Assembly (NCBI GenBank): GCA_035482695.1
Contig: DATHQM010000054.1
Coordinates: 460-64,459 of the forward strand
DNA: 64,000 nt
DNA from: Steroidobacteraceae bacterium
GTDB lineage: Bacteria; Pseudomonadota; Gammaproteobacteria; Steroidobacterales; Steroidobacteraceae
Direction of reading: 5' to 3'
Below are positions 23,444 to 44,458 of this stretch, piece by piece (positions within the stretch are counted from its first letter, which is position 1; the number at the start of each line of letters is the position of its first letter). Made by a program: the position numbers and the translations under genes. The notes beneath the pieces are model-generated. The model saw nothing but the letters and a program-made list of their open reading frames with translations. It was not told where the DNA came from and ran no database searches.

Positions 23444-24171
23444 ATCCGCTCAGCATAAGGACACGCGACGGTATCTGTCCGGCTTACGTCTATCCGCCGC
23501 CCGGCGGCGGACCCTGGCCGGCGGTGCTGGTGTTCATGGACGGGCTCGGCATCCGTCCCGCCGTGCTCGAGATCGGCGAGCGCCTTGCGCGGCATGGCTA
23601 TTACGCCGTGCTGCCCGATCTTTACTACCGCTCCGGCCCGTACGCGCCGATGGATCCGCGCGCGATATTCGCCGATGCGGACCTGCGTCGTGGGCTCGCG
23701 GAGAAGTTCATGGCGCTGGCCACCCCCGCCAATGTCATGTCCGACACACAGGTCTTCCTCGATTTCCTCGGCGCACAGCCCGAGGTGCGCAGCGGCGCCA
23801 TCGGCACGACCGGTTACTGCCTGGGCGGCCTCATGTCGCTCAGCGCCGCCGGCACCTATCCCGGGCGAATCGCCGCCGCCGCTTCGTATCACGGCGGGCG
23901 GCTGGCGACCGACGCGCCCGACAGTCCACACCGGCTGGCGCCGCAAATGAAGGCCCGCATCTACGTCGCCGGCGCCAGCGACGATCCCTCGTTCCCCGCG
24001 GACATGAAACAACGTCTCGAGGCGGCGCTCACCGAGGCCGGCGTCGACCACCGCATCGAGACGTACCCGGCAAAGCATGGCTGGGTGTTTCGCGACACGC
24101 CGGCCTATGACGCGGCGGCGTGCGAGCGGCACTGGCAAACGCTGCTGGCGCTGCTCGCGTCGCAGCTCTAG
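23440..24171 (+). CDS. dienelactone hydrolase family protein
   Basis: ATG 23440 overlaps the symporter stop (ATGA). Nucleophile motif GYCLGG, then AGASDDPSFP and KHGW, typical of DLH. Confidence 0.85.
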   Translation: MNPLSIRTRDGICPAYVYPPPGGGPWPAVLVFMDGLGIRPAVLEIGERLARHGYYAVLPDLYYRSGPYAPMDPRAIFADADLRRGLAEKFMALATPANVMSDTQVFLDFLGAQPEVRSGAIGTTGYCLGGLMSLSAAGTYPGRIAAAASYHGGRLATDAPDSPHRLAPQMKARIYVAGASDDPSFPADMKQRLEAALTEAGVDHRIETYPAKHGWVFRDTPAYDAAACERHWQTLLALLASQL

Positions 24172-25289
24172 GAAATCGAAACCCCGAGCAGCGAACCCAC
24201 TCCGTAGGTGAGGGCTGCGGCGGCACAGCCGGACAGCGCCTGCCGCAACGCCGAGAACCACGGCGTGCGTCCGTTGAAAAGCGAGGTCAGCAGCCCGATG
24301 CCTGCCAGCGCGAGGAAGCTGAGTGCAATGCTCAGGGCGATCGCCTGCACGCCGCGCGCCCACAGGAACGGAACCACCGGGAAGATCGCGCCCGCGCAGA
24401 ACAGTGCAAAGGAAGTGGCGGCGGCGCTGAAGGGATTGCCGCCGAGCTCGGCCGGATCGATCCCGAGCTCCTCGCGTACCAGCGTGTCGAGCGCCGCGTG
24501 CTTGTCCTTCATGAGCTCCGCGGCGACGCGCTGCGCGTCAGCCTTCGGCAGGCCCTTCGCCTGGTAGATCAGCGCCAGCTCGTGCTGCTCGGCTTGCGGG
24601 GTCTGCTCGATCTCCTCCGCCTCCCTGGCGATCTGGCTGCTCGCCAGCTCGCGCGCGTTGGTCACCGAGAGCCACTCGCCGAGCGCCATCGAGCAGGCGC
24701 CCGCGACCAGCCCGGCGAGACCGGTGAGCAGGATGATCCGCTCGCTGCCGCCGGCTCCGGCAACGCCCATGATCAGGCAGAAGTTGGATACCAGCCCATC
24801 GTTCGCCCCCAGCACCGCCGCGCGCAGGTTGTTCCCCGAGGCGCCGCGATGCCAGGGCTCGGCACGCGCAATGTCCGTCCCGCTCACGCCGCCGGGGGCT
24901 GCGCTGCGGGCGATCTCCTGCACCACGGCCGCATGACCGCGCTCCTCGGCGGAGATCGCCTGCGCGTCGCTCTGGGTCGCGTACTTGTTGCGATCGGAAA
25001 ATTCCGCCGCCGCGATGGTCGGCATCACGAAGTGCGGACCGAAGCGCTGCGCCAGTCTGCCGAGCAGCCGCGTGCGAAAGCCCGGCACGTAGGGCTCGAT
25101 GGCGACGCCGGCCTTCGCCAGCTTCTCGCGCCACAGCGCGGCGTGACGCGCCTCCGCCTGCGCCAGCTGCAGGAACAGGTCGCGCCTCACCGGATCGGTT
25201 TCGGCCGCGGCAATGCTGGTGTAGAGCCTGGCACCGTCCAGCTCGTCGCGCAGATTCGCCTGGAAGCGCTTGATGTCGTCGGCGGCCAT
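24168..25289 (-). CDS. ferritin-like domain fused to VIT1/CCC1 transporter (MbfA-like), paralog 2
   Basis: ELDGARLYTSIA...LAQAEARHAALWREKL...ISAEERGHAAVV (two erythrin-type helix pairs). VIT1 motifs LRAAVLGANDGLVSNFCLIMGVAG and LGEWLSVTNAREL. Only 8 nt downstream of the cyclodeaminase-family gene. Confidence 0.85.
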   Translation of the reverse strand: MAADDIKRFQANLRDELDGARLYTSIAAAETDPVRRDLFLQLAQAEARHAALWREKLAKAGVAIEPYVPGFRTRLLGRLAQRFGPHFVMPTIAAAEFSDRNKYATQSDAQAISAEERGHAAVVQEIARSAAPGGVSGTDIARAEPWHRGASGNNLRAAVLGANDGLVSNFCLIMGVAGAGGSERIILLTGLAGLVAGACSMALGEWLSVTNARELASSQIAREAEEIEQTPQAEQHELALIYQAKGLPKADAQRVAAELMKDKHAALDTLVREELGIDPAELGGNPFSAAATSFALFCAGAIFPVVPFLWARGVQAIALSIALSFLALAGIGLLTSLFNGRTPWFSALRQALSGCAAAALTYGVGSLLGVSIS

Positions 25290-30092: not shown

Positions 30093-30203
30093 ACCGCTGC
30101 GCAGTTGTCCGCAGCACGCCCGCCCGCAAGCCGGGGTAGCTTGCTTAACACGCAGGGCGGCAGTTATGTTGTGCATCCGGCCAGCCTTCGGAAGGAGAAG
30201 CGC

Positions 30204-30524
30204 GTGAAACAGGTCATCGACAAGTCCCGCCGCCGCCTGCTCAGGAACATCGCCCTGGGTGTGGTACTGATCCCGATCGCCCGCGCGCCTGTGGAGATCG
30301 CCGGCGCTGCCGACGGCCCGCTCGTCACTGCCGACGATCCCACCGCCAAGGCACTGAAATACACCGCCGACGCCAGCACGTCGCCGGACGCCAAGGGCAA
30401 CAAGTGCTCGAACTGCCGCTTCTACCAGGGTGCCGCCGACAGCGCGCAGGGAGGCTGCCTGATATTCCCGGGCAAGTCGGTCAAGGCTGCGGGGTGGTGT
30501 AGTTCCTGGACCGCGAAAACCTAG
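30204..30524 (+). CDS. high-potential iron-sulfur protein (HiPIP)
   Basis: GAAGGAG RBS then GTG 30204. Tat motif SRRRLL. Four-Cys HiPIP pattern CSNCRFY...GGCLIFPGKSVKAAGWCSSW. Confidence 0.9.
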   Translation: MKQVIDKSRRRLLRNIALGVVLIPIARAPVEIAGAADGPLVTADDPTAKALKYTADASTSPDAKGNKCSNCRFYQGAADSAQGGCLIFPGKSVKAAGWCSSWTAKT

Positions 30525-30840: not shown

Positions 30841-31605
30841 ATGAAGGCTGATTCGCACCCTGAGGGGCAGCTGGGAGTGCCGGCTGCAGTGCTGCACGGC
30901 CGGCTTCTGCACGTCTCGCGCATGGCGACCATCGGTGAGATGGCCGCCGGAGTCGCGCATGAGCTGAATCAACCGCTGACGGCGATCGCCAACTACGCCC
31001 AGGCCTGCCGCCGGCTGCTCGCGCGGCCCGATGCCGACCCGACGGAGCTGCAGCAGGCGCTGGCGGAGATCACCACGCAGGCGGCCCGCGCTGCCGAGAT
31101 CATCCGCCGCCTGCGCGACCTTGCCCGCAGCCAGCAGAGCGAGCGGGCGACGACCGATATCAATGCCCTGGTGCAGGAGATGATCGAACTGGTCGAGAGC
31201 GATGCGCGCCTGCACGGCGTGCACGTCTCGCTCGAGCTCACCGACGAGCTGCCCGGGGTGCTGGTCGACGCCGGTCAGATCCAGCACGTCATTCTCAGCT
31301 TCGTACGCAACAGCCTCGAAGCGCTGGCATCGCAACCCGGCGGCGGGCATTTGTCGATCCGCACCTCGCGGCCCTCCACCGCCGAGGTGGAGGTGGCCGT
31401 CATCGATAACGGCCCGGGTCTTGCCGCGGAAGCGATGGCACGCCTCTTCGACCCCTTCTTCTCCACCAAGGCGAGGGGTACGGGGATGGGCCTGGCGATC
31501 AGCCACACGATCGCACGCACCCACGGCGGTTCGGTAGGCTATCGGCCCAATCAGCCGTCGGGGGCATGCTTTTACATTCTCCTGCCGGCGCCGCCCGCCA
31601 CGTGA
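30841..31605 (+). CDS. sensor-less cytoplasmic histidine kinase (FixL-type transmitter only)
   Basis: H-box IGEMAAGVAHELNQPLTAIANYA begins about 30 aa from the N-terminus. HATPase motifs DNGPGL and GTGMGLAIS. Clear paralog of 11608..12447. Confidence 0.88.
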   Translation: MKADSHPEGQLGVPAAVLHGRLLHVSRMATIGEMAAGVAHELNQPLTAIANYAQACRRLLARPDADPTELQQALAEITTQAARAAEIIRRLRDLARSQQSERATTDINALVQEMIELVESDARLHGVHVSLELTDELPGVLVDAGQIQHVILSFVRNSLEALASQPGGGHLSIRTSRPSTAEVEVAVIDNGPGLAAEAMARLFDPFFSTKARGTGMGLAISHTIARTHGGSVGYRPNQPSGACFYILLPAPPAT

Positions 31606-31606
31606 T

Positions 31607-32233
31607 ATGCAGGACCCGGCGACAACCATCTACGTAGTCGACGACGATGAGGGGGTGCGCAACTCCGTACGCTTCCTGCTCAAGTCCGTCGGACTGACCG
31701 CACGCACCTTTGCCTCCGCGCGCGAGTTCCTCGACGGCTACCAGCCCAGGCAGCCCGGTTGCGTGGTGCTCGACGTGCGCATGCCCGGAATGAGCGGGCT
31801 GGAATTGCAGGAGCAGCTCAACCTGCGCGGCGCGGTGATTCCTGTGATCTTCATCACCGGGCACGGCGATATCCCCATGGCGGTGGACGCCATGCAACAT
31901 GGTGCGTTCGATTTTCTGCAGAAGCCGTTCCGCGACCAGGACCTGATCGACCGCATCCAGCGGGCACTCGATCGCGATGCCAAAAATCGCGCCGCGCTCG
32001 CGCAGCACGACCGAATCCGCGGGCGCTTCGAATCCCTCACGCCACGCGAGCGCGAGGTGCTGACGCTGATGACGCGTGGAAAACCCAACAAGGTGATGGC
32101 CGCGGAGCTCGGCGTCAGTCAGCGCACCGTCGAGATACACCGTGCCCGCGTGATGGAGAAAACCGGCGCCGCGTCACTCGCCCAGCTGGTGCGGATGGTG
32201 CTCGATCTCGAGTCGCAGGACACCGTGCCCTAA
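31607..32233 (+). CDS. FixJ/LuxR family response regulator
   Basis: Receiver (IYVVDDDEGVR...VVLDVRMPGMSG...FLQKP) plus LuxR HTH (LTPREREVLTLMTRGKPNKVMAAELGVSQRTVEIHR). Starts 1 nt after the kinase stop. Confidence 0.92.
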   Translation: MQDPATTIYVVDDDEGVRNSVRFLLKSVGLTARTFASAREFLDGYQPRQPGCVVLDVRMPGMSGLELQEQLNLRGAVIPVIFITGHGDIPMAVDAMQHGAFDFLQKPFRDQDLIDRIQRALDRDAKNRAALAQHDRIRGRFESLTPREREVLTLMTRGKPNKVMAAELGVSQRTVEIHRARVMEKTGAASLAQLVRMVLDLESQDTVP

Positions 32234-32318: not shown

Positions 32319-32834
32319 ATGAACACCAGATCTGACGCGGATATATGCGCCAACGTCGAGGCGGAACTGCACTGCTGCCCGGACGTGGACGAGACCGACA
32401 TCGCGGTCAAGGTACGCAACGGTACCGTCACGCTGAGCGGCTTCGTGCGCAGTCTCTTCGACAAGTACGGCGCGGAGGACGCGATCAGGCGCGTTCGCGG
32501 GGTCGGCGCGGTGGCCAACGAGCTGGTCGTGCAGACACCCGACGGCCGCGACAGCATCTGCGATCCGCAGATCGCGGGCGCCGCAGTTACAGCGATCCAG
32601 CGGCAGCTGCCACTGTGCTGTGAACAGATACGCCTGCTCGTTCACCAGGGCTGCGTCACTCTTGAAGGCAAAGTCGAGTGGCTGCACCAGCGTGAGGAAG
32701 CCGAGGCAGTCGTGCTGCGACTGCCGGGTGTTCGCGGCGTGATCAACGCCATTGCGCTCGCACCGTGCGTGGCATCGGGATGCAACGAGCTGTCGATCCG
32801 CTCCGCGGGTGTTGCCGCCGGGAACGACACCTAG
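32319..32834 (+). CDS. BON domain protein (two BON repeats, OsmY-like)
   Basis: Two repeats of the pattern I.V.V.NG.VTL.G.V....(..)A......V.GV..V.N.L (VKVRNGTVTLSGFV...VRGVGAVANELVV and LVHQGCVTLEGKV...LPGVRGVINAIAL). Confidence 0.85.
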   Translation: MNTRSDADICANVEAELHCCPDVDETDIAVKVRNGTVTLSGFVRSLFDKYGAEDAIRRVRGVGAVANELVVQTPDGRDSICDPQIAGAAVTAIQRQLPLCCEQIRLLVHQGCVTLEGKVEWLHQREEAEAVVLRLPGVRGVINAIALAPCVASGCNELSIRSAGVAAGNDT

Positions 32835-33002
32835 GCCAGGCGAGCCGCGGGCATCCCACACCCGCACGCTGCGATGCAAGCGCTGTTCGATGCGGCGCTG
32901 CGGCGGCGGCGCGAACGGTGCGTGCGCAAGCGCACATACCCGAAAGGATGCTAAGCTGCCGCGCCGTCAGCAGCGCTCGGGTAGCCTTTGAGGGAGCGAA
33001 AA

Positions 33003-34439
33003 ATGGCAGATAGCGCCAACACCCAGGCCTCGCGTCACTTAACTATCGCGGCGATCCTGGCGTCGGGGCTGCTCGCGGCGCCAGCGGCGCTGGCGGTACC
33101 GAGCTTTGCACGGCAGACGGGCATGGCCTGCGAGGCCTGCCACACGGTCTTTCCCGAGCTCACGCACTTCGGCCGCGTCTTCAAGGCTAACGGCTATACG
33201 CTCACGAACCTCAAGCAGGTGCGCGACGTCAGCGCCACCAAACAGCAGCTGCTCGAGCTGTCGCAGATGCCGCCGCTGTCCATCATGGCGCAGATCTCCT
33301 ACACGGAGCTGAAGACCCCCGTCCCCAACCTTGCAGGTGCTGGCGCTCCCGGAGTCGCGCAAAACGGCACTGCCGGCTTTCCGCAGCAGTTCAGCCTGTT
33401 CTACGCGGGCAAGATTGCACCGAACTTCGGCGCGATGTTCCAGCTCACTTACGATAACGCCGGCGGCACGATCGGCATCGACAACAGCGATCTGCGCTTC
33501 GCCGATATGGCACTGCTGCCCGACAACGGCACCCTGACCTACGGCCTGTCGCTCAACAACAACCCGACGGTGCAGGATCTGTGGAACTCGACGCCGGCAT
33601 GGGGCCTTCCCTACGAAGCGAGTAACGCGGCGGTGTCGCCACTCGCCGGCACTGCGATCAACGGCGCGTTCGCGCAGAACGTCGCCGGTCTCACCGGTTA
33701 TCTGTACTGGAACGAATCACTGTACGCCGAGGTCGGCGGTTACCGCTCGGCGCAGCAGGGAGTGACCAACCAGCTGACCGGCGGCGCCGGGCCGCTCGAC
33801 GGCACCGCCTCGAACGTCATCCAGGGGCTCTCGCCTTACTGGCGCCTCGCCTACGAGTACAACTGGGACCGCAATTCCATCGAGGTCGGCGGCTACGGAA
33901 TGGACTTCAAGGTGCTGCCGGGGGCGGCATCCGGCGCGCCCACGAATCTGCATGGTCCTTACAACCAGTTCAATGACGTCGCCGAGGATCTGCAGTATCA
34001 GTTCATAGGCGAGCAGAATCTGTTCAGCGTGATGGCAACCCACATCCACGAGTCGATGACGCTCAATGCGGCTTTTGCCAGCGGGGCGTCGGCGAATCCC
34101 TCCAATACACTCACCACCACCGAGGTAGCGGCCACCTACTACTATCGCCGCCGCATCGGTGGTTCGCTGCAGTACTTCTCGACCACCGGCAGCACCGACA
34201 CCGGCCTGTATCCGGGCACGGCACCAGGCCAGCCGGGCGTGGTCACCAGCGCCAACGGCTCGCCCGACACGCGCGGCTACATCGCGGAGCTCAACTACCT
34301 GCCGTGGCTCAACGTCAAGGTATCGATGCAGTACATCTGGTACAACAAATTCAACGGCGGCAGCAGTAACTACGACGGCGTGGGACGCAACGCTTCCGAC
34401 AACGATACGTTGTATCTGCTCCTCTGGTTCGCGTACTGA
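33003..34439 (+). CDS. fused monohaem cytochrome c / outer-membrane beta-barrel protein (Cyc2-like)
   Basis: GAGGGAG RBS then ATG 33003. Signal peptide ends ALA-VP, followed immediately by SFARQTGMACEACHTVFPELTHFGRVFKANGY (single CxxCH). After that come about 430 aa of alternating-pattern, Gly/Tyr/Asn-rich sequence ending in an aromatic terminus (LLWFAY), typical of OM barrels. Confidence 0.75.
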   Translation: MADSANTQASRHLTIAAILASGLLAAPAALAVPSFARQTGMACEACHTVFPELTHFGRVFKANGYTLTNLKQVRDVSATKQQLLELSQMPPLSIMAQISYTELKTPVPNLAGAGAPGVAQNGTAGFPQQFSLFYAGKIAPNFGAMFQLTYDNAGGTIGIDNSDLRFADMALLPDNGTLTYGLSLNNNPTVQDLWNSTPAWGLPYEASNAAVSPLAGTAINGAFAQNVAGLTGYLYWNESLYAEVGGYRSAQQGVTNQLTGGAGPLDGTASNVIQGLSPYWRLAYEYNWDRNSIEVGGYGMDFKVLPGAASGAPTNLHGPYNQFNDVAEDLQYQFIGEQNLFSVMATHIHESMTLNAAFASGASANPSNTLTTTEVAATYYYRRRIGGSLQYFSTTGSTDTGLYPGTAPGQPGVVTSANGSPDTRGYIAELNYLPWLNVKVSMQYIWYNKFNGGSSNYDGVGRNASDNDTLYLLLWFAY

Positions 34440-34448
34440 GGTTGCGTC

Positions 34449-35126
34449 ATGAGCCATATCAACATGAATCGTGATGCCCGCTGGCAACCCGGCAGCGCCT
34501 GGCCGCGCCTGTGGCTGTCGCTTGCCGGCACCGCCCTGCTCGCGACCGCGGTGTGCGTGGTGCGCGCCGATGAGCCCGATCCTGCCGCAAAGGCGTACGT
34601 CGCAAAAATTGCCATCGGCACCTGCGGCACCTGCCACGGGCGGGACGGCAACAGCACGCAGCCGAAGTTTCCGCGCCTCGCCGGCCAGCGACCCACCTAC
34701 CTCGTTACGCAGCTCAAGGGATTTCGCGCCCAGACCCGCGGTGATCCGGATGCGATCAGCTACATGTGGGGCATGGCGAGCCAGCTGGACGATACGACCA
34801 TGGAGACGCTCGCCGCCTATTACGCCACGCAGACAGCGCAGGTCAGCCCGGGCGGCGACGCGGCGCTCGTCGCGCGCGGACGCGAGATCTACGAGCATGG
34901 CGTGGCGGCACAGGGCGTGCCGGCCTGCAGCACCTGTCATGGAGCGGATGCCCATGGGCAGCAGGATTTCCCGCGCCTCGCCGGCCAGCACGCGCAGTAC
35001 GCGCTGAAGCAGCTCGCCTCCTTCCAGAGCAGCATGCGCAACGTCGCGGTCATGCACGGCGTGGCGCAGAATCTGCATCTGGACGACATGCAGGCGGTGG
35101 CGGCGTACCTGGAGGCGCAGCCCTAG
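34449..35126 (+). CDS. dihaem cytochrome c4 family protein
   Basis: Two CxxCH sites (CGTCHGRDG, CSTCHGADA), each followed by FPRLAGQ and a Met-containing distal segment. Signal peptide present. Starts 9 nt after the Cyc2-like gene. Confidence 0.9.
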   Translation: MSHINMNRDARWQPGSAWPRLWLSLAGTALLATAVCVVRADEPDPAAKAYVAKIAIGTCGTCHGRDGNSTQPKFPRLAGQRPTYLVTQLKGFRAQTRGDPDAISYMWGMASQLDDTTMETLAAYYATQTAQVSPGGDAALVARGREIYEHGVAAQGVPACSTCHGADAHGQQDFPRLAGQHAQYALKQLASFQSSMRNVAVMHGVAQNLHLDDMQAVAAYLEAQP

Positions 35127-37198: not shown

Positions 37199-38308
37199 CT
37201 AGCCCGCCGGCACGGCGCGCACGACGCCCCAGGGACTGCCGCCGACCTTCACCCGGGCTTTCACCTCCCCGGTCTTGAGATCGATGATCGACACATCGCC
37301 CGAGGGCCCGTTGGCCGTGTAGGCCGTCTCGCCGTCGGAGCTCAGCGCCACGCCCCAGGGACGCACGCCGACATTGTCGATGGTGCGGACGATCCGGCCG
37401 GATTGCGTGTCGACCTCGAGGAGCTTGCCGAACCTGCCGGTCGTGACATAGAGGTGCCGGCCGCCGTCCGGCGAATCGAGGCCCATGGGGCGCACGACTT
37501 TCGGGTCCCCGAGATCGATGGTCTTCACGACCTTATAGTCGTCGCTGCTGAACTCCGTCAGCGCCGCGCCGAACTCATCGCTCACGTAGCCGCGATGCGT
37601 GTCGCGGGACAGGTAGATCGCGCGCGGGCGCTTCCCGGTAGGGATCTGCGCCAGCACCTTCATGGCGCCGGCCTCGACCACGTAAACCGCGTTGGAGGTC
37701 TCGCAGGCGACGTACACGATGCGGTCGTCCGCACTAATGGCAACGCCCTCCGGCTCGGTACCGACCGGCACAGTGACGCGCAGGCTCCCCTTGGCAAGGT
37801 CGATGGCCGAGAGCTGCCCGCTGTCCTCGTTGGAGACATACAGCACCTTGCCGTCGTGCGACAGCGCGAAGGTCTCCGGGTCGATGCCGCTCGGGTAGGT
37901 GCCGATGAGTCGCTGCGCGGCGAGGTCGATCACCCCGATGCCGTCGTAACGGTGATCGGGCGGCGGGAGCTTCGACTCGTCGACCCCCGGTCCCGCCGCC
38001 GGCGAGCCGGTCAGCGCCACATACAGCCGCTTGCGATCCGGGGAGATGACGATGCCGCGCGGCCGCTTGCCGACCGCGATGCGCGCCACCACCGCCGCCT
38101 GCTGCGGATCGACGATCACGACGTTGCCGCCGGTCTCGTCCGAGACGTACAGCCGCTCGCCGCCGCCCGCCGCGACGGCCGCGCTGAGCGGTGCGAGCAG
38201 CAGCAGCGCCAGCACCGCGGCCGCGGCACCGGAACGCCGGCGCGATGCGTGAGTCTTCAGTAGCGCACCATCAGTACAGCACCACGCTTCGGATCGAGGT
38301 GCCGGCAT
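37199..38308 (-). CDS. YVTN-repeat beta-propeller protein (PQQ-dehydrogenase-associated type)
   Basis: Repeated ..LYV(S/A)...G.V.VID.... units ([99 protein letters not shown]). Overlaps the flhA 3' end by 38 nt if ATG 38308 is used. Confidence 0.8.
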
Positions 38309-39380
38309 GCATCAGGTCGAACGCGTCGTTGATCTTATCCAGCGGCATGGTGTGCGTGATCAGCGGATCGATCGCGATCTTCTTGTCCATGTACCAGTCG
38401 ACGATCTTCGGTACGTCGGTGCGGCCACGCGCGCCGCCGAAAGCGGTGCCCTTCCATACCCTGCCCGTCACCAGCTGGAACGGCCGGGTCTTGATTTCCT
38501 GGCCCGCGCCGGCCACGCCGATGATCACCGATACGCCCCAGCCGCGATGGCAGCACTCGAGTGCCTGGCGCATGAGGTTGACGTTGCCCACACATTCGAA
38601 GCTGTAGTCGGCGCCGCCGTCGGTGACGGCGACGAGGTGCGCCACCAGGTCGCCCTCAACCTCCTTGGGGTTGACGAAGTGCGTCATGCCGAATTTCTCG
38701 GCGAGCGCCTTGCGATTCGGATTGAGATCGACGCCGACGATCTTGTAGGCGCCGGCCATGCGGGCGCCCTGGATCACGTTCAGCCCGATGCCGCCGAGAC
38801 CAAACACCACCACGTTGGCGCCCGGCTCGACCTTCGCGGTGTTGATCACCGCGCCGATCCCGGTGGTCACGCCGCAGCCGATGTAGCAGACCTTGTCGAA
38901 CGGCGCGTCCTCGCGGATCTTCGCCACCGCGATCTCCGGCAGCACCGTGAAGTTGGAGAAGGTCGAACAACCCATGTAGTGGTAGATCTTGTCCTTGCCG
39001 ATCGAGAAGCGGCTGGTGCCATCGGGCATCACGCCTTTGCCCTGGGTGGCGCGGATCGCGGTGCACAGGTTGGTCTTGCGCGACAGGCAGCTCTTGCACT
39101 GCCGGCACTCCGGCGTGTAGAGCGGGATCACGTGGTCGCCCTTCTTCACGGAAGTGACGCCAGGTCCTACGTCGACGACGATGCCCGCCCCCTCGTGTCC
39201 GAGAATCGACGGGAACAGGCCTTCCGGGTCACCGCCCGAACGGGTGAACTCGTCCGTGTGGCAGACGCCGGTGGCCTTGAGCTCCACCAGCACCTCGCCG
39301 GCCTTGGGGCCTTCCAGATCGACCGTCGCGATCTCGAGGGGCTTGCCGGCGGCATAGGCAATCGCAGCGCGTGTTTTCAT
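38271..39380 (-). CDS. flhA: S-(hydroxymethyl)glutathione dehydrogenase / class III alcohol dehydrogenase
   Basis: [49 protein letters not shown]...[10 protein letters not shown] and the rest are near-canonical class III ADH sequence. AGGAAC RBS. Confidence 0.93.
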
Positions 39381-39427
39381 GGCTGACAGGTTCCTGATTC
39401 GGAAGCGGTTACGAGTCCGAAGCTGAG

Positions 39428-39455
39428 GGCCCCGCGCGAGCGGGCGCGCGGGGCC
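39428..39455 (-). other. strong intercistronic stem-loop between gfa and flhA
   Basis: GGCCCCGCGCG-(6 nt)-CGCGCGGGGCC, a perfect 11-bp GC stem in the 92-nt gfa-flhA spacer. No U tract follows. Confidence 0.5.
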
Positions 39456-39472
39456 TTCAATGCACGCTGAAC

Positions 39473-40045
39473 TTACGCGGCCAGCACGCCCTTGGCTTTC
39501 GCCGTGTGCGTGGCGATCAGATCCATCAGCGCCGGCGACAGGCAGTCATAGGGCTCGAGGCCGAGCTCTTTCAACCTGGCGCGCACCGCGCCCATCTGGT
39601 CGGGCTTGGTGCCCGACTCGATGATCGAGGATACGAACGCCGCGAAGCGCGGCTCCTCCCAACCCTGCTCCTTCGACAGCTCGGTATGGAAGAAGTCGAA
39701 GCCGTAGAACGGGTGCTGCTTGTTCTCGATGCGCCCGTACATGTGCACGCCGCAGCCGGTGCAGGCATGGCGCTGGATCGCCGCCTTCTCATCGACGATC
39801 TTCAGCTTGTTGCCGTTCGCGGTCACGGACAGCTTGTCGCGCCCGCCCACGCCGACGATGGAGAACACCGCTCCCTCCGGCTTCCAGCACTTGGTGCAGC
39901 CGCAGGCGTGATTGAAGGCGACGTTCGTGCCGATGCGCACGGTCACCGGGTTGCTGGTGCACTTGCAGGTGAGCGTGCCGCCGGCGAACCCCGGCGTGCC
40001 CTTCTTGACTCCGTTGTCGACCATCGGGTGAATCTTGATTGCCAT
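39473..40045 (-). CDS. gfa: S-(hydroxymethyl)glutathione synthase (glutathione-dependent formaldehyde-activating enzyme)
   Basis: [26 protein letters not shown]...[15 protein letters not shown]...[17 protein letters not shown]...FVSSIIESG matches Paracoccus Gfa, as I recall it, almost residue for residue. Confidence 0.93.
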
Positions 40046-40082
40046 CTTAGTCCTGCCTCGCCTCTGGGGTGGATCGATTGAC

Positions 40083-42071
40083 TCATTCGGGCGACTGCGG
40101 ACTCACCCCGAGGTGCTGGGTGTGTCGCAGAAGTCCGTGTCGGTGAATCTTGCGGTAAATGGTGCGGCGGCTGATGTGCAGCCGCGCGGCGGCAGCGCTG
40201 ACGTTCCACTGACAGGTCTCGAGCGTGCGCCTGAGCGCATCGCGCTCGGCGCCGCTGAGCGCGCTCTCGCCGTCGGCGGCCGCGTCCACCGCCGCGCCGT
40301 CGCCGTGCGCTGCGTCCTCGACGCCGCCCGCCAGCCACTGCTCCCTGAAGTCCGCGAGCGTCAGCCGCTCGCCGCTGCGCAGCGCCAGCATGGTGCGCAG
40401 CACGTTGCGCAGCTGGCGCACGTTGCCCGGCCAGGAGTGGCGCACCAGCCGCTCGAGCAGCTGGGGCTCGATCTCGATCGTGGCAACGCACTCGCTCGCG
40501 AGCAGCTTGCGGATCAGGCCGGCCTTGTCGGTGCGCTGGCGCAGCGGCGGCAGCCGCACGGTGATGCCGTTCAGCCGGTAATACAGGTCTTCGCGGAACT
40601 GCCCCTTGGCGATCATGTCGAGCGGATCGTGTTGCGTGGCGCTGACGATGCGCACGTCGACGTTGACCACCTTGTTGCCGCCCAGCGGCGTCACTTCGCG
40701 GTCCTCGATCACGTTCAGCAACCGCGCCTGCAGGGCCACCGGCATGTCGCCGATCTCGTCGAGAAACAGCGTGCCGCCGTTGGCCTGCAGGATGCGGCCC
40801 ATACCGCCTTCGCGCGCCGCGCCGGTGAAGGCGCCCGGCTTGTGGCCGAACAGCTCGCTCTCGATGAGCGTTTCGGGGATCGCCGCGCAGTTGACCGTGA
40901 CGAAGGGCTTGTCGGCGCGGTTGCTCGCGTAATGGATGGCGCGCGCGCAGTAACCCTTGCCGGTGCCGGTCTCCCCGAGCAGCAGCACCGAGATATCCCG
41001 ATCGATCACGCGCCGCAGCGTCTCGACGTTCTGCGTCATGACTGGATCGGCCGAGTGCAGGCAGTCGAGCGACCCGCGCGCGCCCGCCGCGTTGGCCATG
41101 CGCACCTCGGCGTCGACCGCCACCTGGGTGCGTGGCGGGGCTTCCAGCGGCGCCTGCACGGTCGCGAACCAGCGCCGTGCCGCGGGCCGGGAGTTGAGCG
41201 GCTCGGCGCGGAAGCCGCGCTGCGCGGCGAGCTGCATGAGCGTGGCGAGGCTGGTATCGAGGATACGGTCGGCGCGCTGGCCGCACACCGCATCATGGTC
41301 GCGCTGCCCGAGGAGCTTGAGCGCCGCACGGTTGACGCCGCGCACCACGCCCTCGTCGTCGAACGCCAGCAGGCCTTCGCCGGGCGTGCTGACGAACTCC
41401 GCGCAGCGGTGAAAGCGCGCCAGGTGCAGGTCCTTGCAGCCACTGAGCAGCGTGCGGTTCTCGACGTTCTGCGCCGCCATGTCGACCAGCGCCAGCGTGT
41501 GACTCTGCGGATTCGAGGAGGCCCCGGAGATATCGAGCGCCGCGAGCAGCTCGCCGCGCATGTCGAAGATGGGCGCTGCCGAACAGGTGAGCGCGGTGTT
41601 CTGCGCCAGGAAGTGGTCGGTACGGTGGATCACCACCGGGCGGCGCGCCGTGAGGCAGGTGCCCATGCCATTGGTGCCCATCTCGCGCTCGCTCCACATC
41701 ACCCCTTCGCGAAAGCCGCAGCGCCTGGCGGTGGCGGAGAAGCCGGTGTCGCCGAGATAGCTGAGGATGACCCCGTCGCGGTCGGTCAGCATGATGCTGT
41801 ATTCGGAGTGCTTGATGAGCTTGCCGAGCTGCTCCATCTCGATGCGCGCGACGGCCAGCAGCACCCGCAGCCGTTCGCGCCGCTCCTGCAGGTCCGCGCG
41901 CTCGACGCTGTTCGGACGGCGCGTCTCCTGCGGATCGAGCGCAAAGTTGTTGAGGCAGCGGCTCCAGGATGTACGGACGACCTCGGGGATGGGCTGCTCG
42001 GCACCGTGTCGGCGTACCAGACTGCCGATGAGGTCCTGGTGAGTATGAGCAGCGGGTCGCGCACGCATCAT
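40083..42071 (-). CDS. sigma54-dependent transcriptional activator (AcoR-like: N-terminal GAF-type sensor, AAA+ domain, Fis-type HTH)
   Basis: Walker A GETGTGKG, the sigma54-contact motif GAFTGA ([10 protein letters not shown]), ESELFGH, and C-terminal [21 protein letters not shown] 42071 has a GGAGGGGGAG RBS. Confidence 0.9.
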
Positions 42072-42107
42072 AAATAGCTCCCCCTCCACACCCGTCAGGC
42101 GGACGGA

Positions 42108-42656
42108 CTAACCCTCAGGCTTACAGCCGAATTTACAGTCGGGCGAGCCATGGTAGTTCGACCGTACCCAGGCAAGGATGCGCCACAAATCGTCGGCCGT
42201 CTGCACCACCTGCCCCATCTGCGGCATCGGTCCGACGACGTTCTCCTGGGCAATGCGGCTGTAGCCCTTGCTCTGCAGAGTCTGGCTCCCGTAGGTCACC
42301 AGCCGGAACAGCGTGTCGTCATCGCCGCCGTAGACCCAGACGTCGTTAGTGAGCGGCGGGCACATCCCGCCGCCGCCGGTGCCGCCGTGGCAACCGTTGC
42401 AGCCGTAGCTGAAGTACAGCTTGCCGCCGGCCGTCACGACCGCCTGGTCAGTGTCCGCGTACGGGTTCTTGAGCGTGCCCTTGGGCGCGGCATCAGCCAC
42501 CTGGATGGGAGTCTGGCTGGCGGCCTTGGCGGGCGCCGCTGCGGGCGCTGCAGCCGGCGCTGCAGCCTGTGCGGCAGCGGCCGGCGGCTGGCGGGCGTAG
42601 ATCAGCAACGCCGCCAGCGCCAATGTAACCAACACCGTGACTGCACTCTTCCGCAC
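42108..42656 (-). CDS. periplasmic c-type cytochrome of the methanol/ethanol-dehydrogenase-associated type (XoxG/c550-like)
   Basis: Single haem site within FSYGCNGCHGGTGGGGMCPPL plus a distal GPMPQM. Signal peptide follows GTG 42656 (GAAAGG RBS). The track's ATG 42725 would overlap the upstream gene by 29 nt. Confidence 0.8.
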   Translation of the reverse strand: MRKSAVTVLVTLALAALLIYARQPPAAAAQAAAPAAAPAAAPAKAASQTPIQVADAAPKGTLKNPYADTDQAVVTAGGKLYFSYGCNGCHGGTGGGGMCPPLTNDVWVYGGDDDTLFRLVTYGSQTLQSKGYSRIAQENVVGPMPQMGQVVQTADDLWRILAWVRSNYHGSPDCKFGCKPEG

Positions 42657-42696
42657 TTGCGCGCCTTTCGTTGCCTCGAGGAACGGGACTGGCGTT

Positions 42697-44316
42697 CTAC
42701 GCTCCGGGATGTGCGCCAGATTCATCCAGCAGCTTGATCACCTTCTGATCGCCCTTGGCGCGCGCGATGGACAGCGCGGTGTCGCCGCGCTCGGTCTGCG
42801 CGTTGACGTTGGCGCCGGCATGCATCAGCAGCTCCACCATCTCCGCGCGGCCGTTGGCGGCGGCGATCATCAGCGCGGTGACTCCGCCGCTGTTGTGCGC
42901 GTTGACGTCCGCGCCCTTGCCCAGCAGCGCCCGGGCGAGGCCCTGCGCGTCGTTGGCGCTCGCCAGCATCAGCGGGGTGTAGCCCGCCTCACCGATCGCA
43001 CGGTTGGGATCAGCCCCGACCGCGACCAGCGCCAGCGCTGCCTCGTCCTTGCCGTACTGCGTGGCGATGCCGAGGGGCGTGAAATTCTGCCGGCTCACTG
43101 CATTCGGGTCCCCGCCCTTCGCCGCGAGCGTCTTGATGTCCGGCGCATCATTGCAATAGGCCGCGGTCATGAGCGGCGTCCAGCCGTCGCTGTCGCGCTG
43201 ATTGACGTCGGCGCCGTGCGCCAGCAGGAACGCGACCATCTCGGGTGAGCGCTGAATGAGCGCGTGATGCAGCGGCGTCTCGCCCTGCAGGTCCTGTGCC
43301 GTCACCGGCACGTGCACCTTGTCGAGCAGGTACGCGACGCGCACCTGGTCGTCGGCCACCACCGCATTGTTGAGCTCAATCTTCGGGTCCGCGCCGTGCT
43401 TCAGCCAGCCCTGCAGTTGCGCGATGCTCACCGGCGCGGCGCGCGCCTTCACCGGCGCCTGCGGCGCTCGCTCAACGTACGCTGCGTGCGCGGGCAGCTC
43501 GCCGCTGATCAGGCAGGTGTCGCACTGCACGAGCGGCACGCCGTAGTCGTTCAGGATCGCGTGCAGCGCGTCGCGCGACTGCTGCATCGCCTGCTCGAGG
43601 CGCTGCCGCAGCTCGTGATCGCTGCGCCGCACGGCGATCGCCATGTCGTACTGCAGCGGCACGGTATCGTCCATGAGGTTGGCCGCCTGCAGGTTGAGCG
43701 GCTCGCGCTTCATCGTTTTGTAGTAGCCGGCGAGCGGTCCCCACACGGCGGCGACGTCCAGATTGCCGTCGGCCACCTGCTGCACCTGGTAGCTCGGCTG
43801 GTCCGCCGGCACCAGGTCGGCGTCGTGACTCAGATAATGAATCTCCACCTTGCCGATACCGTGCTCGACGAGCGCCTCACGGATCGCGGAAGTCTCGTAG
43901 ACGCCGACCTTGAGCGTGCGCAGGCGCGGATCGTCCAGGGTCCTGATGTTCAGGTTGCGATCGCTGCGCGTTACCAGCACGTAGGTCGTGCGGTACAGCG
44001 CGCTGGTCGTGAGCACGTCCTCGGCGCCCAGCGGCATGTCGAGCATCACGTCGCACTGCTCGGCATCGAGCGTATTGCGTATCAGTCCGCGCTCAACCCC
44101 GGGCCGGTAGTAATACTCGACGGTGGTGTTGAGCGCGCGCGCCAGCACCTCCGCCATCTTGTTCTCGATGCCTTCGCCCTTGTTGTTGGACAGCGGCATG
44201 TTGCCCGGATCCGCGCATACGCGCAGCGCCGCCTCGGCCGGTGCGGCCAGCAGCGTGACCAATCCTGTGGCCAGCAACACGTTCAGTGCCGGCCGGGCTC
44301 GCATCCACCTCGTCAT
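42697..44316 (-). CDS. MoxJ/XoxJ-like periplasmic binding protein fused to C-terminal ankyrin repeats
   Basis: Signal peptide. LRVCADPGNMPLSNNKGEGIENKMAEVLA...CDVMLDMP matches the quinoprotein-dehydrogenase-associated SBP family. The C-terminal ~240 aa hold 6-7 ankyrin repeats (GETPLHHAL, DGWTPLMTAA, GYTPLMLAS, GVTALMIAAANGRAEMVELLMHAGANVNA, GDTALSIARAKG). Confidence 0.85.
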   Translation of the reverse strand: MTRWMRARPALNVLLATGLVTLLAAPAEAALRVCADPGNMPLSNNKGEGIENKMAEVLARALNTTVEYYYRPGVERGLIRNTLDAEQCDVMLDMPLGAEDVLTTSALYRTTYVLVTRSDRNLNIRTLDDPRLRTLKVGVYETSAIREALVEHGIGKVEIHYLSHDADLVPADQPSYQVQQVADGNLDVAAVWGPLAGYYKTMKREPLNLQAANLMDDTVPLQYDMAIAVRRSDHELRQRLEQAMQQSRDALHAILNDYGVPLVQCDTCLISGELPAHAAYVERAPQAPVKARAAPVSIAQLQGWLKHGADPKIELNNAVVADDQVRVAYLLDKVHVPVTAQDLQGETPLHHALIQRSPEMVAFLLAHGADVNQRDSDGWTPLMTAAYCNDAPDIKTLAAKGGDPNAVSRQNFTPLGIATQYGKDEAALALVAVGADPNRAIGEAGYTPLMLASANDAQGLARALLGKGADVNAHNSGGVTALMIAAANGRAEMVELLMHAGANVNAQTERGDTALSIARAKGDQKVIKLLDESGAHPGA

Positions 44317-44458
44317 TTTCTGCCTGCAGCTCCTCGCTCCATGCGGTGCCTTAGCTCCTTGCGGTGCTCTTCCCCTGAAGAAGAGGACGCGCCCGGCACG
44401 GTGCCGGGCGCGTCCAGCTGGCGACTATCTCACCAGGTCCTTGCTGAGGAGCATCCTC

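What the first reader, a model, noticed from the sequence alone, without database searches (positions are those of the whole stretch)
33003..34439. Single-haem cytochrome fused to a beta-barrel: motif details
Seen:
- The mature N-terminus is VPSFARQTGMACEACHTVFPELTHFGRVFKANGYTL.
- There is no second haem motif.
- The remainder has porin-like composition (abundant G, Y, N, alternating hydrophobics) and ends in LLWFAY, an aromatic OM-insertion terminus.
- The true start is ATG 33003 behind GAGGGAG, not the track's TTG 32988.

Established from memory: I recall a conserved P.FAR-type segment before the haem motif, with the CxxCH within ~20 residues of the signal cleavage site, as a hallmark of Cyc2-type fused cytochrome-porins.

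Inference: this is an extracellular-facing redox protein. Its substrate (Fe(II), humics, another metal) cannot be read from sequence.
Basis: partly seen in the sequence, partly recalled or inferred. Interest (0 to 1): 0.7.

Follow-up and report, generated by a model that had tools for sequence, protein, structure and literature searches.

The report
Cyc2-type fused cytochrome-porin gene
This gene encodes an outer-membrane protein that joins a one-haem cytochrome to a 16-strand porin barrel; it belongs to the known Cyc2 iron-oxidase family and sits next to a periplasmic cytochrome c4 partner, so it is a correct but not a new identification, and its real substrate in this soil bacterium is still untested.

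Summary
Window 33003-34439 (+) encodes a 478-aa protein with a 31-residue signal peptide, one CXXCH (only two Cys in total) and a C-terminal LLWFAY.

It meets every published sequence criterion for Cyc2: AVPSFARQT upstream of CEACH, PEL four residues after it, and a length of at least 365 aa. An AlphaFold model (pLDDT 83.5) gives a 16-strand barrel with porin topology, and Foldseek returns only 16-strand porins.

It aligns end to end with the biochemically characterised Acidithiobacillus ferrooxidans Cyc2 (33% identity, E = 1e-66). The ATG start is supported by a Shine-Dalgarno/ATG arrangement shared with relatives.

The downstream gene (34449-35126) is a dihaem cytochrome c4, similar to A. 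ferrooxidans Cyc1 (1H1O, E = 1e-33). It follows the Cyc2-like gene in 63 of 84 related loci, mirroring cyc2-cyc1 of the rus operon. A HiPIP gene and a FixJ-type regulator lie upstream.

The family is very large (over 3,400 clusters at 50% identity). It has already been reported in a Steroidobacteraceae genome and in many heterotrophs, where its function is considered uncertain.

Verdict: a new member of a known kind. Iron oxidation is likely but unproven. "Extracellular-facing" is imprecise, because topology puts the haem segment at the periplasmic mouth or inside the barrel.

The parts
32990..32996 (+). Shine-Dalgarno GAGGGAG, 6 nt upstream of the ATG start
   Evidence: Sequence. An equivalent GGGAG-type SD plus ATG is conserved in relatives L005, L007, L012, L003, L001 and L020.
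33003..34439 (+). Cyc2-family fused monohaem cytochrome-porin gene (478 aa plus stop)
   Evidence: ORF. All published Cyc2 motifs are present. 33% identity and E = 1e-66 to A. ferrooxidans Cyc2 over the full length. More than 7,000 homologous clusters.
33003..33095 (+). Sec-type signal peptide, residues 1-31, with cleavage after A-L-A
   Evidence: Basic n-region (R11), hydrophobic core at residues 12-28 (Kyte-Doolittle window means 1.3-2.3), and A at -1 and -3. The same A-x-A site precedes xPxFAR in 119/124 (-1) and 104/124 (-3) family representatives. AfCyc2 also has a 31-residue signal peptide. This is rule-based; no SignalP run was possible.
33096..33272 (+). Small cytochrome-like segment plus linker (residues 32-90): AVPSFARQT motif, CEACH (nt 33129-33143), PEL, and the conserved G57/R58/F60/K61/G64/Y65
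   Evidence: Motifs. Column conservation. Short helices 35-39 and 55-62 and a hairpin at 72-87 in the model. H47 corresponds to the AfCyc2 haem ligand H16 in mature numbering.
33276..34433 (+). 16-strand beta-barrel (residues 92-477) with porin topology and a C-terminal aromatic beta-signal (LLWFAY)
   Evidence: AlphaFold2 model 2 has pLDDT 83.5 and pTM 0.82, with 16 strands. Model 1 gave the same strand count. Foldseek top hits are all 16-strand porins, best E = 1.9e-10. Turns are 2-5 residues and loops 4-41 residues. The C-terminal residue is F, Y or W in 111/124 representatives.
33558..33680 (+). Long loop 3 (residues 186-226), starting with the family's most conserved non-haem motif, NNNPTVQDLWNSTPAWG
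   Evidence: It is the longest connection (41 residues) between strands 5 and 6. N185, N186, P188 and D192 are invariant or nearly so. The same motif is in AfCyc2. That it folds into the lumen like porin L3 is inference.
34449..35126 (+). Dihaem cytochrome c4 gene (225 aa), 9 nt downstream; the likely periplasmic electron-transfer partner (Cyc1-like)
   Evidence: Pfam Cytochrom_C twice, and 2 CXXCH. PDB matches 1ETP at E = 3e-34 and 1H1O (A. ferrooxidans Cyc1/CYC41) at E = 1.1e-33. It lies immediately downstream of the Cyc2-like gene in 63/84 related loci.
30105..30524 (+). HiPIP gene (the true start is probably internal, before the SRRRLL Tat motif); a possible additional periplasmic carrier
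   Evidence: Pfam HIPIP 1.9e-20. A HiPIP lies within 6 kb of the Cyc2-like gene in 9/84 loci, mostly the closest clade. An annotated HiPIP also lies upstream of the Caballeronia homologue. The functional link is inferred.
30841..32233 (+). Histidine kinase (30841-31605) and FixJ/LuxR-type response regulator (31607-32233); candidate regulators
   Evidence: Pfam HisKA/HATPase_c. Response_reg plus GerE, and NCBIfam FixJ 243 bits against a cutoff of 255. The pair is conserved next to the gene in L005 and L001. A regulatory link is not shown.
32319..32834 (+). Two-BON-domain (OsmY-like) periplasmic stress protein gene directly upstream
   Evidence: Pfam BON 2.8e-27. BON genes also occur near the homologue in L001, L003, L004 and L012.

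Best explanation
The gene encodes a member of the Cyc2 family: a Sec-exported outer-membrane protein in which a roughly 60-residue monohaem c-type cytochrome segment is fused to the N-terminus of a 16-strand porin-like barrel. With the co-transcribed periplasmic dihaem cytochrome c4 (Cyc1-like) it forms a minimal trans-outer-membrane electron conduit. The most likely mechanism is as follows. A soluble reductant, most probably Fe(II), enters the barrel from outside and meets the single haem, which sits at the periplasmic mouth or in the lumen. The electron then passes to cytochrome c4, and possibly to the nearby HiPIP, and on to the respiratory chain. Shown here: the anatomy, the fold, homology to characterised Cyc2, and the conserved pairing with c4. 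Inferred: haem attachment, outer-membrane location, substrate, direction of electron flow, and control by the adjacent FixJ-type system under low oxygen.
For: - **Published Cyc2 criteria.** All are met (criteria from PMC8406198): a signal peptide, one CXXCH, AVPSFARQT with R five residues before Cys, PEL four residues after His, and 478 aa.
- **Fold.** The AlphaFold2 model (pLDDT 83.5, pTM 0.82) has 16 strands with short turns and long loops.
- **Homology to characterised Cyc2.** BLASTP against A. ferrooxidans Cyc2 (B7JAQ7, sequence) gives 33% identity, end to end, E = 1e-66. An Acidithiobacillus-type Cyc2 that is 81% identical to AfCyc2 was found by the unbiased library search at E = 1e-60.
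- **Same layout as AfCyc2.** AfCyc2 has a signal peptide at 1-31, a cytochrome-like segment at about 30-90, a barrel from about 90, and no Pfam family. Its haem ligand H16 equals the target's H47.
- **Partner gene.** The downstream gene is cytochrome c4: 1ETP at 3e-34 and AfCyc1 1H1O at 1e-33. It is adjacent in 63/84 loci, matching the cyc2-cyc1 order of the rus operon. Loci without c4 often carry a small monohaem cytochrome instead.
- **Conserved barrel residues.** R165, D192, R281, D325, D329 and E350 are invariant or nearly so. This is unusual for porins and consistent with a functional lumen.
Against: - No experiment exists for this protein or its close relatives. Only three Cyc2 proteins have biochemical support, and the field regards homologues outside known iron-oxidiser clades as uncertain.
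- The host clade (Steroidobacteraceae-like, soil) is not an established iron oxidiser.
- The window holds no rusticyanin, cox operon or carbon-fixation genes next to the pair.
- One of the two Fe sites computationally predicted in AfCyc2 (H119/D137/D138) is only partly conserved, as Q147/D160/N161.
- No conserved Met or His distal haem ligand is evident; K61 is 98% conserved and M95 69%.
Confidence: 0.6

Rival explanations
1. It is the same protein family and conduit, but it runs outward. Under oxygen limitation, electrons from the respiratory chain would pass through c4 or HiPIP to the haem and on to extracellular Fe(III), humic substances or another oxidant. It would act as an electron outlet rather than an iron oxidase.
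For: - The A. ferrooxidans Cyc2 chain is described as reversible.
- The neighbourhood in this clade looks like a low-oxygen or stress regulon: a FixJ-type two-component system and BON here; HSP20, HemN and Usp in L001 and L003; and U32/U32/SCP2 genes upstream of the Acidiphilium cryptum JF-5 homologue.
- From my own knowledge, not tested here: those U32/SCP2 genes resemble the UbiU/V/T O2-independent ubiquinone pathway, and A. cryptum JF-5 is known as an Fe(III) reducer.
Against: - No biochemical precedent exists for a Cyc2 working as a reductase in vivo outside A. ferrooxidans.
- A single haem at the periplasmic side cannot reach insoluble oxidants, so soluble acceptors would have to enter a narrow pore.
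- No FNR/FixK box was found upstream, so the low-oxygen link rests on gene neighbourhood only.
Confidence: 0.15
2. It is a Cyc2-family oxidase acting on another substrate or for another purpose. Examples are Mn(II) or reduced organic/humic shuttles, or Fe(II) oxidation used for detoxification at oxic-anoxic interfaces rather than for energy conservation.
For: - Cyc2 homologues of Ca. Manganitrophus are proposed to take electrons from Mn(II), and Nitrospira homologues could not be assigned to either Fe or Mn.
- Keffer et al. state that Cyc2 may have additional functions.
- The window is rich in metal-homeostasis genes: a ferritin/Dps-like gene, two VIT1-family genes, and a CopA-type multicopper oxidase with CopB. 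It otherwise looks organo- or methylotrophic, with a PQQ dehydrogenase, GFA and a zinc alcohol dehydrogenase.
Against: The closest characterised relative (AfCyc2, 33% identity) is an Fe(II) oxidase, and the c4 partner matches the iron-oxidation chain. There is no direct evidence for any alternative substrate in any Cyc2.
Confidence: 0.2
3. It is essentially a diffusion porin whose N-terminal haem has a structural, sensing or plug-gating role and takes no part in respiratory electron transfer.
For: The barrel resembles general and phosphate-selective porins, and there is no experimental redox data for this clade.
Against: The haem motif and surrounding residues are the most conserved part of a family spanning many phyla. 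The gene is consistently paired with a soluble c-type cytochrome. Three family members oxidise Fe(II) in vitro.
Confidence: 0.05

Closest known systems
[quoted passage not shown] 2020)
   Same: - The length (478 vs 485 aa) and the 31-residue signal peptide match.
- The xPSFARQTG..C..CH...P.L motif matches, and His16 of the mature protein is the haem ligand.
- Both have a cytochrome-like segment at about 30-90, then a 16-strand barrel.
- Both share the conserved loop-3 motif NN.PT..D.WN.TP.W, GSPDT, YLPW.N, YNKFNG, and an aromatic C-terminus.
- Identity is 33% end to end.
- Both are followed by a dihaem c4 cytochrome gene.
   Different: - There is no cup, coxBACD, rusticyanin or cta genes downstream; the unit here is only the two genes, followed by a convergent HAD hydrolase.
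- The host is a neutral-soil Steroidobacteraceae-like bacterium, not an acidophile.
- The predicted Fe site H119/D137/D138 is Q147/D160/N161 here.
- The neighbours are a FixJ-type two-component system, a BON protein and a HiPIP.
Cyc2 of Mariprofundus ferrooxydans PV-1 and other 'cluster 1' neutrophilic iron oxidisers (Gallionellaceae, Zetaproteobacteria, Chlorobi)
   Same: The architecture and diagnostic motifs are the same, and the barrel is predicted to have 16 strands. The protein presumably works at neutral pH, like these.
   Different: No cluster 1 sequence was available for direct comparison. Published identities between AfCyc2-type and cluster 1 proteins are only 18-23%. The target is closer to AfCyc2 (33%) than AfCyc2 is to its listed cluster mates (27-30%), though the methods differ. 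Confidence in iron oxidation is highest for cluster 1 and lower elsewhere.
Uncharacterised Cyc2 homologues of heterotrophic Proteobacteria (Ralstonia, Caballeronia/Paraburkholderia, Ideonella, Methylocystis, Acidiphilium) and a previously reported Steroidobacteraceae MAG
   Same: Identity is 35-44% over at least 89% of the length. The gene is often followed by a c-type cytochrome, and a HiPIP lies upstream in Caballeronia. A Steroidobacteraceae MAG has been reported with a Cyc2-like gene. A near-identical N-terminus (TLZ45134.1) is listed among the top AfCyc2 relatives.
   Different: None of these is functionally characterised, and they are annotated only as 'cytochrome C' or 'hypothetical protein'.
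Porin-cytochrome complexes MtrCAB / MtoAB / PioAB
   Same: They are outer-membrane conduits that couple extracellular iron redox chemistry to periplasmic carriers. PioC, the partner of PioAB, is a HiPIP.
   Different: Those use a 26-strand barrel that encloses a separate decahaem cytochrome. Here there is one polypeptide, one haem and 16 strands, with no multihaem gene adjacent.
General and phosphate-selective 16-strand porins (OmpF/OmpC, Omp-Pst, PorB, OprO/OprP)
   Same: The strand number and topology match, with a long loop 3 and a C-terminal aromatic residue. Foldseek E-values go down to 1.9e-10, with target-normalised TM scores of 0.55-0.61.
   Different: There is no detectable sequence similarity. 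Those porins lack the N-terminal haem segment and the invariant lumen residues.

Membership tests
Cyc2 fused cytochrome-porin family (criteria of Keffer et al. 2021 / FeGenie) | N-terminal signal peptide for export | tested here: met
   Residues 1-31 have a basic n-region, a hydrophobic core and an A-L-A cleavage site. The A-x-A site is conserved family-wide. This is a rule-based assessment; no dedicated predictor was available.
Cyc2 fused cytochrome-porin family (criteria of Keffer et al. 2021 / FeGenie) | Exactly one CXXCH haem-binding motif near the N-terminus | tested here: met
   CEACH at residues 43-47, with only two Cys in the protein. All 124 full-length representatives have exactly one CXXCH.
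Cyc2 fused cytochrome-porin family (criteria of Keffer et al. 2021 / FeGenie) | AXPXFAR[Q/K][T/Y] motif upstream of CXXCH (5 residues between R and C) | tested here: met
   A31-V-P-S-F-A-R-Q-T39, then G-M-A-C43.
Cyc2 fused cytochrome-porin family (criteria of Keffer et al. 2021 / FeGenie) | PXL motif 4 residues downstream of CXXCH | tested here: met
   H47-T-V-F-P51-E-L53. P51 is present in 115/117 and L53 in 117/117 of the diverse alignment.
Cyc2 fused cytochrome-porin family (criteria of Keffer et al. 2021 / FeGenie) | Length of at least 365 aa (typically over 400) | tested here: met
   478 aa.
Cyc2 fused cytochrome-porin family (criteria of Keffer et al. 2021 / FeGenie) | C-terminal 16-strand porin-like beta-barrel | tested here: met
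   Two AlphaFold2 models each give 16 strands. The better one has pLDDT 83.5. Foldseek hits are 16-strand porins, and with model 1 they include OprO 4RJW.
Cyc2 fused cytochrome-porin family (criteria of Keffer et al. 2021 / FeGenie) | Full-length sequence homology to a biochemically characterised Cyc2 | tested here: met
   33% identity, 209 bits and E = 1e-66 to AfCyc2 over residues 1-478. An Acidithiobacillus-type Cyc2 was hit at library-wide E = 1e-60.
Cyc2 fused cytochrome-porin family (criteria of Keffer et al. 2021 / FeGenie) | Score above the FeGenie Cyc2 HMM cut-offs and assignment to cluster 1, 2 or 3; placement in the published Cyc2 tree | not testable with these tools
   The FeGenie HMMs and the figshare alignment were not available. 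The only pointer is that the nearest characterised protein is AfCyc2 (cluster 2).
Cyc2 fused cytochrome-porin family (criteria of Keffer et al. 2021 / FeGenie) | Covalently bound haem, outer-membrane location and Fe(II) oxidase activity | not testable with these tools
   This needs expression, a haem stain, fractionation and kinetics.
Cytochrome c4 (dihaem class I; Cyc1/CYC41-like), for the downstream partner 34449-35126 | Two class-I cytochrome c domains, each with CXXCH, and homology to solved c4 structures | tested here: met
   Pfam Cytochrom_C in two stretches. 2 CXXCH. PDB matches 1ETP at 3e-34, 1H1O at 1.1e-33 and 6Q2U at 1.6e-30.
MtrB/MtoB/PioB porin-cytochrome complexes | About 26-strand barrel with an adjacent decahaem cytochrome gene | tested here: not met
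   There are 16 strands. The only neighbouring cytochromes are a dihaem c4 and a distant monohaem cytochrome c.

The most novel reading that the evidence does not exclude
In abundant soil heterotrophs or methylotrophs of the Steroidobacteraceae type, and in many Burkholderiales and Alphaproteobacteria, the stripped-down cyc2-c4 module (often with a HiPIP) would not be a chemolithotrophic engine. It would be a hypoxia-induced accessory electron valve, controlled by a FixJ-type system together with BON, Usp, HSP20 and HemN stress genes. It would let organotrophs exchange electrons with dissolved Fe(II)/Fe(III) or humic shuttles at oxic-anoxic interfaces. If so, a large share of the 'uncertain' Cyc2 homologues in soil metagenomes would mark facultative iron redox cycling by heterotrophs.
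Probability: 0.2. Interest if true: 0.55.

Novelty: new member of a known kind. Interest (0 to 1): 0.27.

Why it matters
Cyc2 is the most widely used marker gene for microbial iron oxidation, yet only three family members have been tested. This locus adds no new kind of system. It does document, in a soil Steroidobacteraceae-like genome, a clean example of the minimal two-gene cyc2-c4 unit. That unit proves to be conserved across dozens of proteobacterial lineages and sits among low-oxygen and stress genes. This is useful context for deciding whether the very many Cyc2 homologues in soil metagenomes really indicate iron oxidation. It also points to culturable organisms (Paraburkholderia kururiensis, Caballeronia, Ralstonia) in which the question could be tested genetically.

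Tried and rejected
- **Family libraries.** Pfam and NCBIfam scans of the target gave no hit at E <= 1. A PDB sequence search found nothing meaningful. The family has no curated model or solved relative.
- **Source names.** Names in the two large homologue searches were uninformative: 'hypothetical protein' or 'cytochrome C'.
- **Printed sequence search.** A full-text search for 'FARQT' returned only OCR noise. The Keffer supplements hold no sequences. The AfCyc2 sequence was eventually found in the Jiang et al. supplement. It had two or three OCR-dropped residues. I repaired two of them using the printed DNA and P0269, and residue numbering after about position 230 is still off by one.
- **FNR/FixK box.** A TTGAT-N4-ATCAA search (up to 2 mismatches) found no site in the 168-bp upstream region 32835-33002.
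- **Promoters and terminators.** The consensus sigma-70 and terminator scan around the unit gave nothing useful.
- **Model coordinates.** They are not exposed, so I could not measure where the haem segment sits relative to the barrel.
- **Genome scan.** It kept only the 80 best loci, so no cluster 1 iron-oxidiser Cyc2 was retrieved, and the cluster assignment (2 vs 3) remains open.
- **MtrB/PioB-type reading.** Considered and rejected: the strand number and the missing multihaem partner rule it out.
- **TTG 32988 start.** Considered and rejected: it overlaps the SD and is not conserved.
Full report
**1. The observation**

The window is 67.8% G+C. An ORF runs from TTG 32988 or ATG 33003 to the stop at 34437-34439 on the + strand.

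From the ATG, the 478-aa product begins MADSANTQASRHLTIAAILASGLLAAPAALA, followed by VPSFARQTGMACEACHTVFPELTHFGRVFKANGYTL. It ends in LYLLLWFAY. It has one CXXCH (residues 43-47) and only two cysteines.

The complete published motif string occurs once in the six-frame translation of the 64-kb window. C43, C46 and H47 are invariant across 117 relatives that are only 35-53% identical to the target. The motif is therefore a conserved feature and not chance.

**2. Start codon and export signal**

GAGGGAG lies 6 nt upstream of ATG 33003, and TTG 32988 overlaps this element. In relatives L005, L007, L012, L003, L001 and L020, a GGGAG-type Shine-Dalgarno precedes an ATG at the equivalent place. An in-frame TTG equivalent exists only in the closest relative, L005.

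Residues 1-31 have the form of a Sec signal peptide, with cleavage after A-L-A. Across 124 full-length family representatives, the residue at -1 is Ala in 119 and at -3 is Ala in 104. The site lies directly before x-P-x-F-A-R, and the median signal length is 30. No dedicated predictor was available, so this step is rule-based.

**3. What it is: family membership**

Pfam and NCBIfam have no model for the protein, and no solved structure is related by sequence.

The family is nevertheless very large. There are more than 7,000 clusters at 90% identity among the candidates scored. In an exhaustive search there are 3,472 representatives at 50% identity with E <= 1e-3, of which 435 have E <= 1e-30.

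Keffer et al. 2021 (PMC8406198) define Cyc2 by these features:
- a signal peptide;
- a single CXXCH;
- an AXPXFAR[Q/K][T/Y] motif upstream of it;
- a PXL motif four residues downstream;
- a length of at least 365 aa;
- a 16-strand porin resembling OprO/OprP.

The target reads A-V-P-S-F-A-R-Q-T, G-M-A, C-E-A-C-H, T-V-F, P-E-L. It fits residue for residue. Of 135 representatives with an N-terminal CXXCH, 70 carry both motifs exactly. Most of the rest carry conservative variants such as F to Y or A to S/G/T.

**4. Fold**

A first AlphaFold2 model from a shallow alignment was weak (pLDDT 54) but already showed 16 strands. A second model used a deeper alignment with 41-57% identical homologues obtained through a profile search. 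It reached pLDDT 83.5 and pTM 0.82.

The second model has 16 long strands between residues 92 and 477. These are preceded by short helices (35-39 and 55-62) around the haem motif and by a small hairpin (72-87).

The connections alternate strictly. Seven turns have 2-5 residues, and eight loops have 4-41 residues, the third being the longest at 41. This is the classical porin topology. It places both termini, and therefore the attachment point of the haem segment, on the periplasmic side.

Foldseek against the PDB returned only 16-strand porins. Omp-Pst2 scored E = 1.9e-10, followed by OmpF/OmpC, OmpT/OmpU and PorB. With model 1, OprO 4RJW appeared at rank 39. The C-terminal residue is aromatic in 111 of 124 representatives, which fits a BAM insertion signal.

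**5. Direct link to a characterised Cyc2**

The supplement of Jiang, Khare and Banta (bioRxiv 10.1101/2021.03.22.436458) prints the A. ferrooxidans Cyc2 sequence, B7JAQ7.

BLASTP aligns the target with it from residue 1 to 478, at 33% identity, 47% positives, 209 bits and E = 1e-66. Global identity is 38% over aligned positions.

Shared blocks outside the haem segment include:
- FPQQ.SLFYAG;
- the loop-3 motif NN.PT..D.WN.TP.W;
- PY.RLAY;
- GSPDT;
- YLPW.N;
- YNKFNG;
- the terminal L.LL.W..Y.

One of the representatives found by the exhaustive search (P0269, library-wide E = 1e-60) is 81% identical to AfCyc2.

The same supplement lists the ten proteins most similar to AfCyc2. Among them is 'Gammaproteobacteria bacterium TLZ45134.1', whose N-terminus is almost identical to the target. 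The list also has the Rubrivivax and Melioribacter proteins whose loci I had fetched as L048 and L063.

AfCyc2 has the same layout: 485 aa, a signal peptide at 1-31, a cytochrome-like segment at about 30-90, a barrel from about 90, and no Pfam family. Its haem ligand His16 (mature numbering) is the target's H47.

Published identities of AfCyc2 to its listed cluster mates are 27-30%, and to cluster 1 proteins 18-23%. AfCyc2 is therefore the nearest characterised relative. McAllister et al. 2020 place AfCyc2 in cluster 2. I could not run FeGenie or the published tree, so the cluster assignment stays open.

**6. Surroundings**

Nine nucleotides downstream, a 225-aa dihaem cytochrome starts at 34449. 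It is a cytochrome c4. PDB matches are 1ETP at 3e-34, and 1H1O (A. ferrooxidans Cyc1/CYC41) at 1.1e-33. A convergent HAD hydrolase closes the unit.

In 84 related loci, a c4 homologue lies immediately downstream on the same strand in 63. This covers essentially all proteobacterial copies, plus an Acidobacteriota MAG and Paraburkholderia kururiensis. In the loci without c4, which are mostly Bacteroidota, Acidobacteriota and Binatia, a small monohaem cytochrome is often adjacent instead.

This mirrors the cyc2-cyc1 order of the rus operon and the stand-alone cyc2-cyc1 pairs described in Acidithiobacillus (PMC10654088).

Upstream in the window lie four genes:
- a HiPIP (30105-30524);
- a short histidine kinase;
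- a FixJ-type response regulator;
- a two-BON-domain protein.

A HiPIP lies within 6 kb in 9 of 84 loci, mostly in the closest clade. One is also annotated upstream of the Caballeronia homologue.

In Steroidobacteraceae relatives the pair sits among BON, HSP20, HemN and Usp genes, and L001 also carries a two-component system. This suggests a low-oxygen or stress regulon. However, no FNR/FixK box was found upstream, and no promoter or terminator consensus was informative.

The closest genome (93% identity, with a largely shared neighbourhood) is a soil MAG labelled uncultured Gammaproteobacteria. Other close hits are Steroidobacteraceae MAGs.

**7. How it most likely works**

Shown: an exported protein with a haem-c binding site, fused to a 16-strand barrel, homologous over its whole length to an outer-membrane Fe(II) oxidase, and encoded with a periplasmic c4 cytochrome.

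Inferred: the haem segment sits at the periplasmic mouth or inside the lumen, as proposed for AfCyc2 and Cyc2 PV-1. A soluble reductant, most likely Fe(II), enters the barrel. The electron then goes through the single haem to cytochrome c4 and perhaps HiPIP, and on to the respiratory chain.

The barrel carries invariant or nearly invariant polar residues (R165, D192, R281, D325, D329, E350, Y247, Y279), which is unusual for a porin and consistent with a functional lumen.

The two Fe sites computationally predicted in AfCyc2 map onto the target as follows:
- H119/D137/D138 corresponds to Q147/D160/N161, so it is only partly conserved.
- Y262/D308 corresponds approximately to Y279/D325, both at least 98% conserved. 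The residue numbering here is uncertain by one because of OCR gaps.

No Met or second His is universally conserved. K61 (98%) and M95 (69%) are the only candidate distal ligands, so that point is unresolved.

**8. Rivals**

- **Reverse flow.** The conduit could export electrons to Fe(III) or humics under hypoxia. The reported reversibility of the A. ferrooxidans chain and the stress or low-oxygen neighbourhood favour this.
- **Another substrate or purpose.** This could be Mn(II), or Fe(II) detoxification. It is allowed by the literature and by the metal-homeostasis genes elsewhere in the window.
- **Non-redox porin.** This role is unlikely, given the conservation of the haem segment and the constant cytochrome partner.

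None of these rivals changes the family assignment.

**9. Comparison with what is known, and novelty**

Cyc2 homologues are known to be widespread in organisms not known to oxidise iron. Burkholderia, Ralstonia and Xanthomonas sequences were down-sampled in the reference tree. The AfCyc2 similarity network connects to Rhodanobacteraceae, Burkholderiales, Hyphomicrobiales and Acidiphilium.

A Steroidobacteraceae MAG has already been reported as Cyc2-positive (PMC8357290). Surveys routinely flag such genes as functionally uncertain.

Cultured carriers annotate the gene only as 'cytochrome C' or 'hypothetical protein'.

This is therefore a new member of a known kind. 'Extracellular-facing' should be replaced by 'outer-membrane conduit with the haem at the periplasmic side or in the lumen'.

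**10. Scores**

| Item | Value |
|---|---|
| Family membership | about 0.95 |
| Fe(II) oxidation as the physiological role | about 0.45 |
| Combined best explanation | 0.6 |
| Interest | 0.27 |

The interest score reflects a correct and tidy result that would not surprise a specialist. The breadth of the conserved cyc2-c4 module and its stress-regulon context give a modest lead for testing what the many soil Cyc2 homologues do.

Noticed in passing
window 30105-30524 (+): A HiPIP gene with a twin-arginine motif (SRRRLL) lies about 2.5 kb upstream of the Cyc2-like gene. HiPIPs are carriers in other iron-oxidation chains (Iro, PioC). One recurs within 6 kb in 9/84 related loci and upstream of the Caballeronia homologue.
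   Followed up: partly
window 37199-46327 (-): There is a cluster resembling methanol/formaldehyde oxidation. It has a PQQ-dependent dehydrogenase (44459-46327), an ankyrin-repeat protein (42697-44316), a monohaem cytochrome c (42108-42725), a sigma-54 activator with a GAF domain (40083-42089), a glutathione-dependent formaldehyde-activating enzyme (39473-40045), a zinc alcohol dehydrogenase (38271-39380) and a YncE-like propeller (37199-38308). A similar gene set on one contig was described for a Steroidobacteraceae MAG (PMC13264449).
   Followed up: no
window 1531-2124, 10334-11278, 17122-19652, 24168-25289: The window has a concentration of metal-handling genes: a ferritin/Dps-like protein, two VIT1-family (Fe/Mn transporter) proteins, and a CopA-type multicopper oxidase with CopB.
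   Followed up: no
window 33003-34439, residues K61 and M95: No Met or second His is conserved across the family to serve as sixth haem ligand; only K61 (98%) and M95 (69%) stand out. The mature N-terminus is held at a fixed 11 residues before the first Cys in nearly all members. The identity of the distal ligand is open.
   Followed up: partly
window 32922-32935: A perfect inverted repeat, GTGCGC-AA-GCGCAC, lies in the 168-bp region between the BON gene and the Cyc2-like gene. It could be an operator or a stem-loop. Conservation in relatives was not examined (sequence).
   Followed up: no
L067 4068-5468 and 5896-7290; L079 6017-8698; L083 7895-10573; L055 3371-5878: In a Lentimicrobiaceae MAG two Cyc2-like genes lie in tandem. 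In two Acidobacteriota loci a protein of about 890 aa with four CXXCH follows the gene; from my own reading, its N-terminus looks cytochrome-b-like. In L055 two haem-motif proteins (506 and 323 aa) precede it.
   Followed up: no
L086 (Acidiphilium cryptum JF-5 plasmid pACRY03) 1588-4147: SCP2 and two U32-peptidase genes lie upstream of the Cyc2-like/cytochrome c pair on a conjugative plasmid. From my own knowledge, these resemble the O2-independent ubiquinone pathway UbiT/U/V. An identical-scoring hit sits on a plasmid labelled Acidithiobacillus ferrooxidans, CP084173.1.
   Followed up: no
window 2543-4438 (-): A 631-aa protein combines a caspase (Peptidase_C14) domain with an FGE-sulfatase-type domain.
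   Followed up: no
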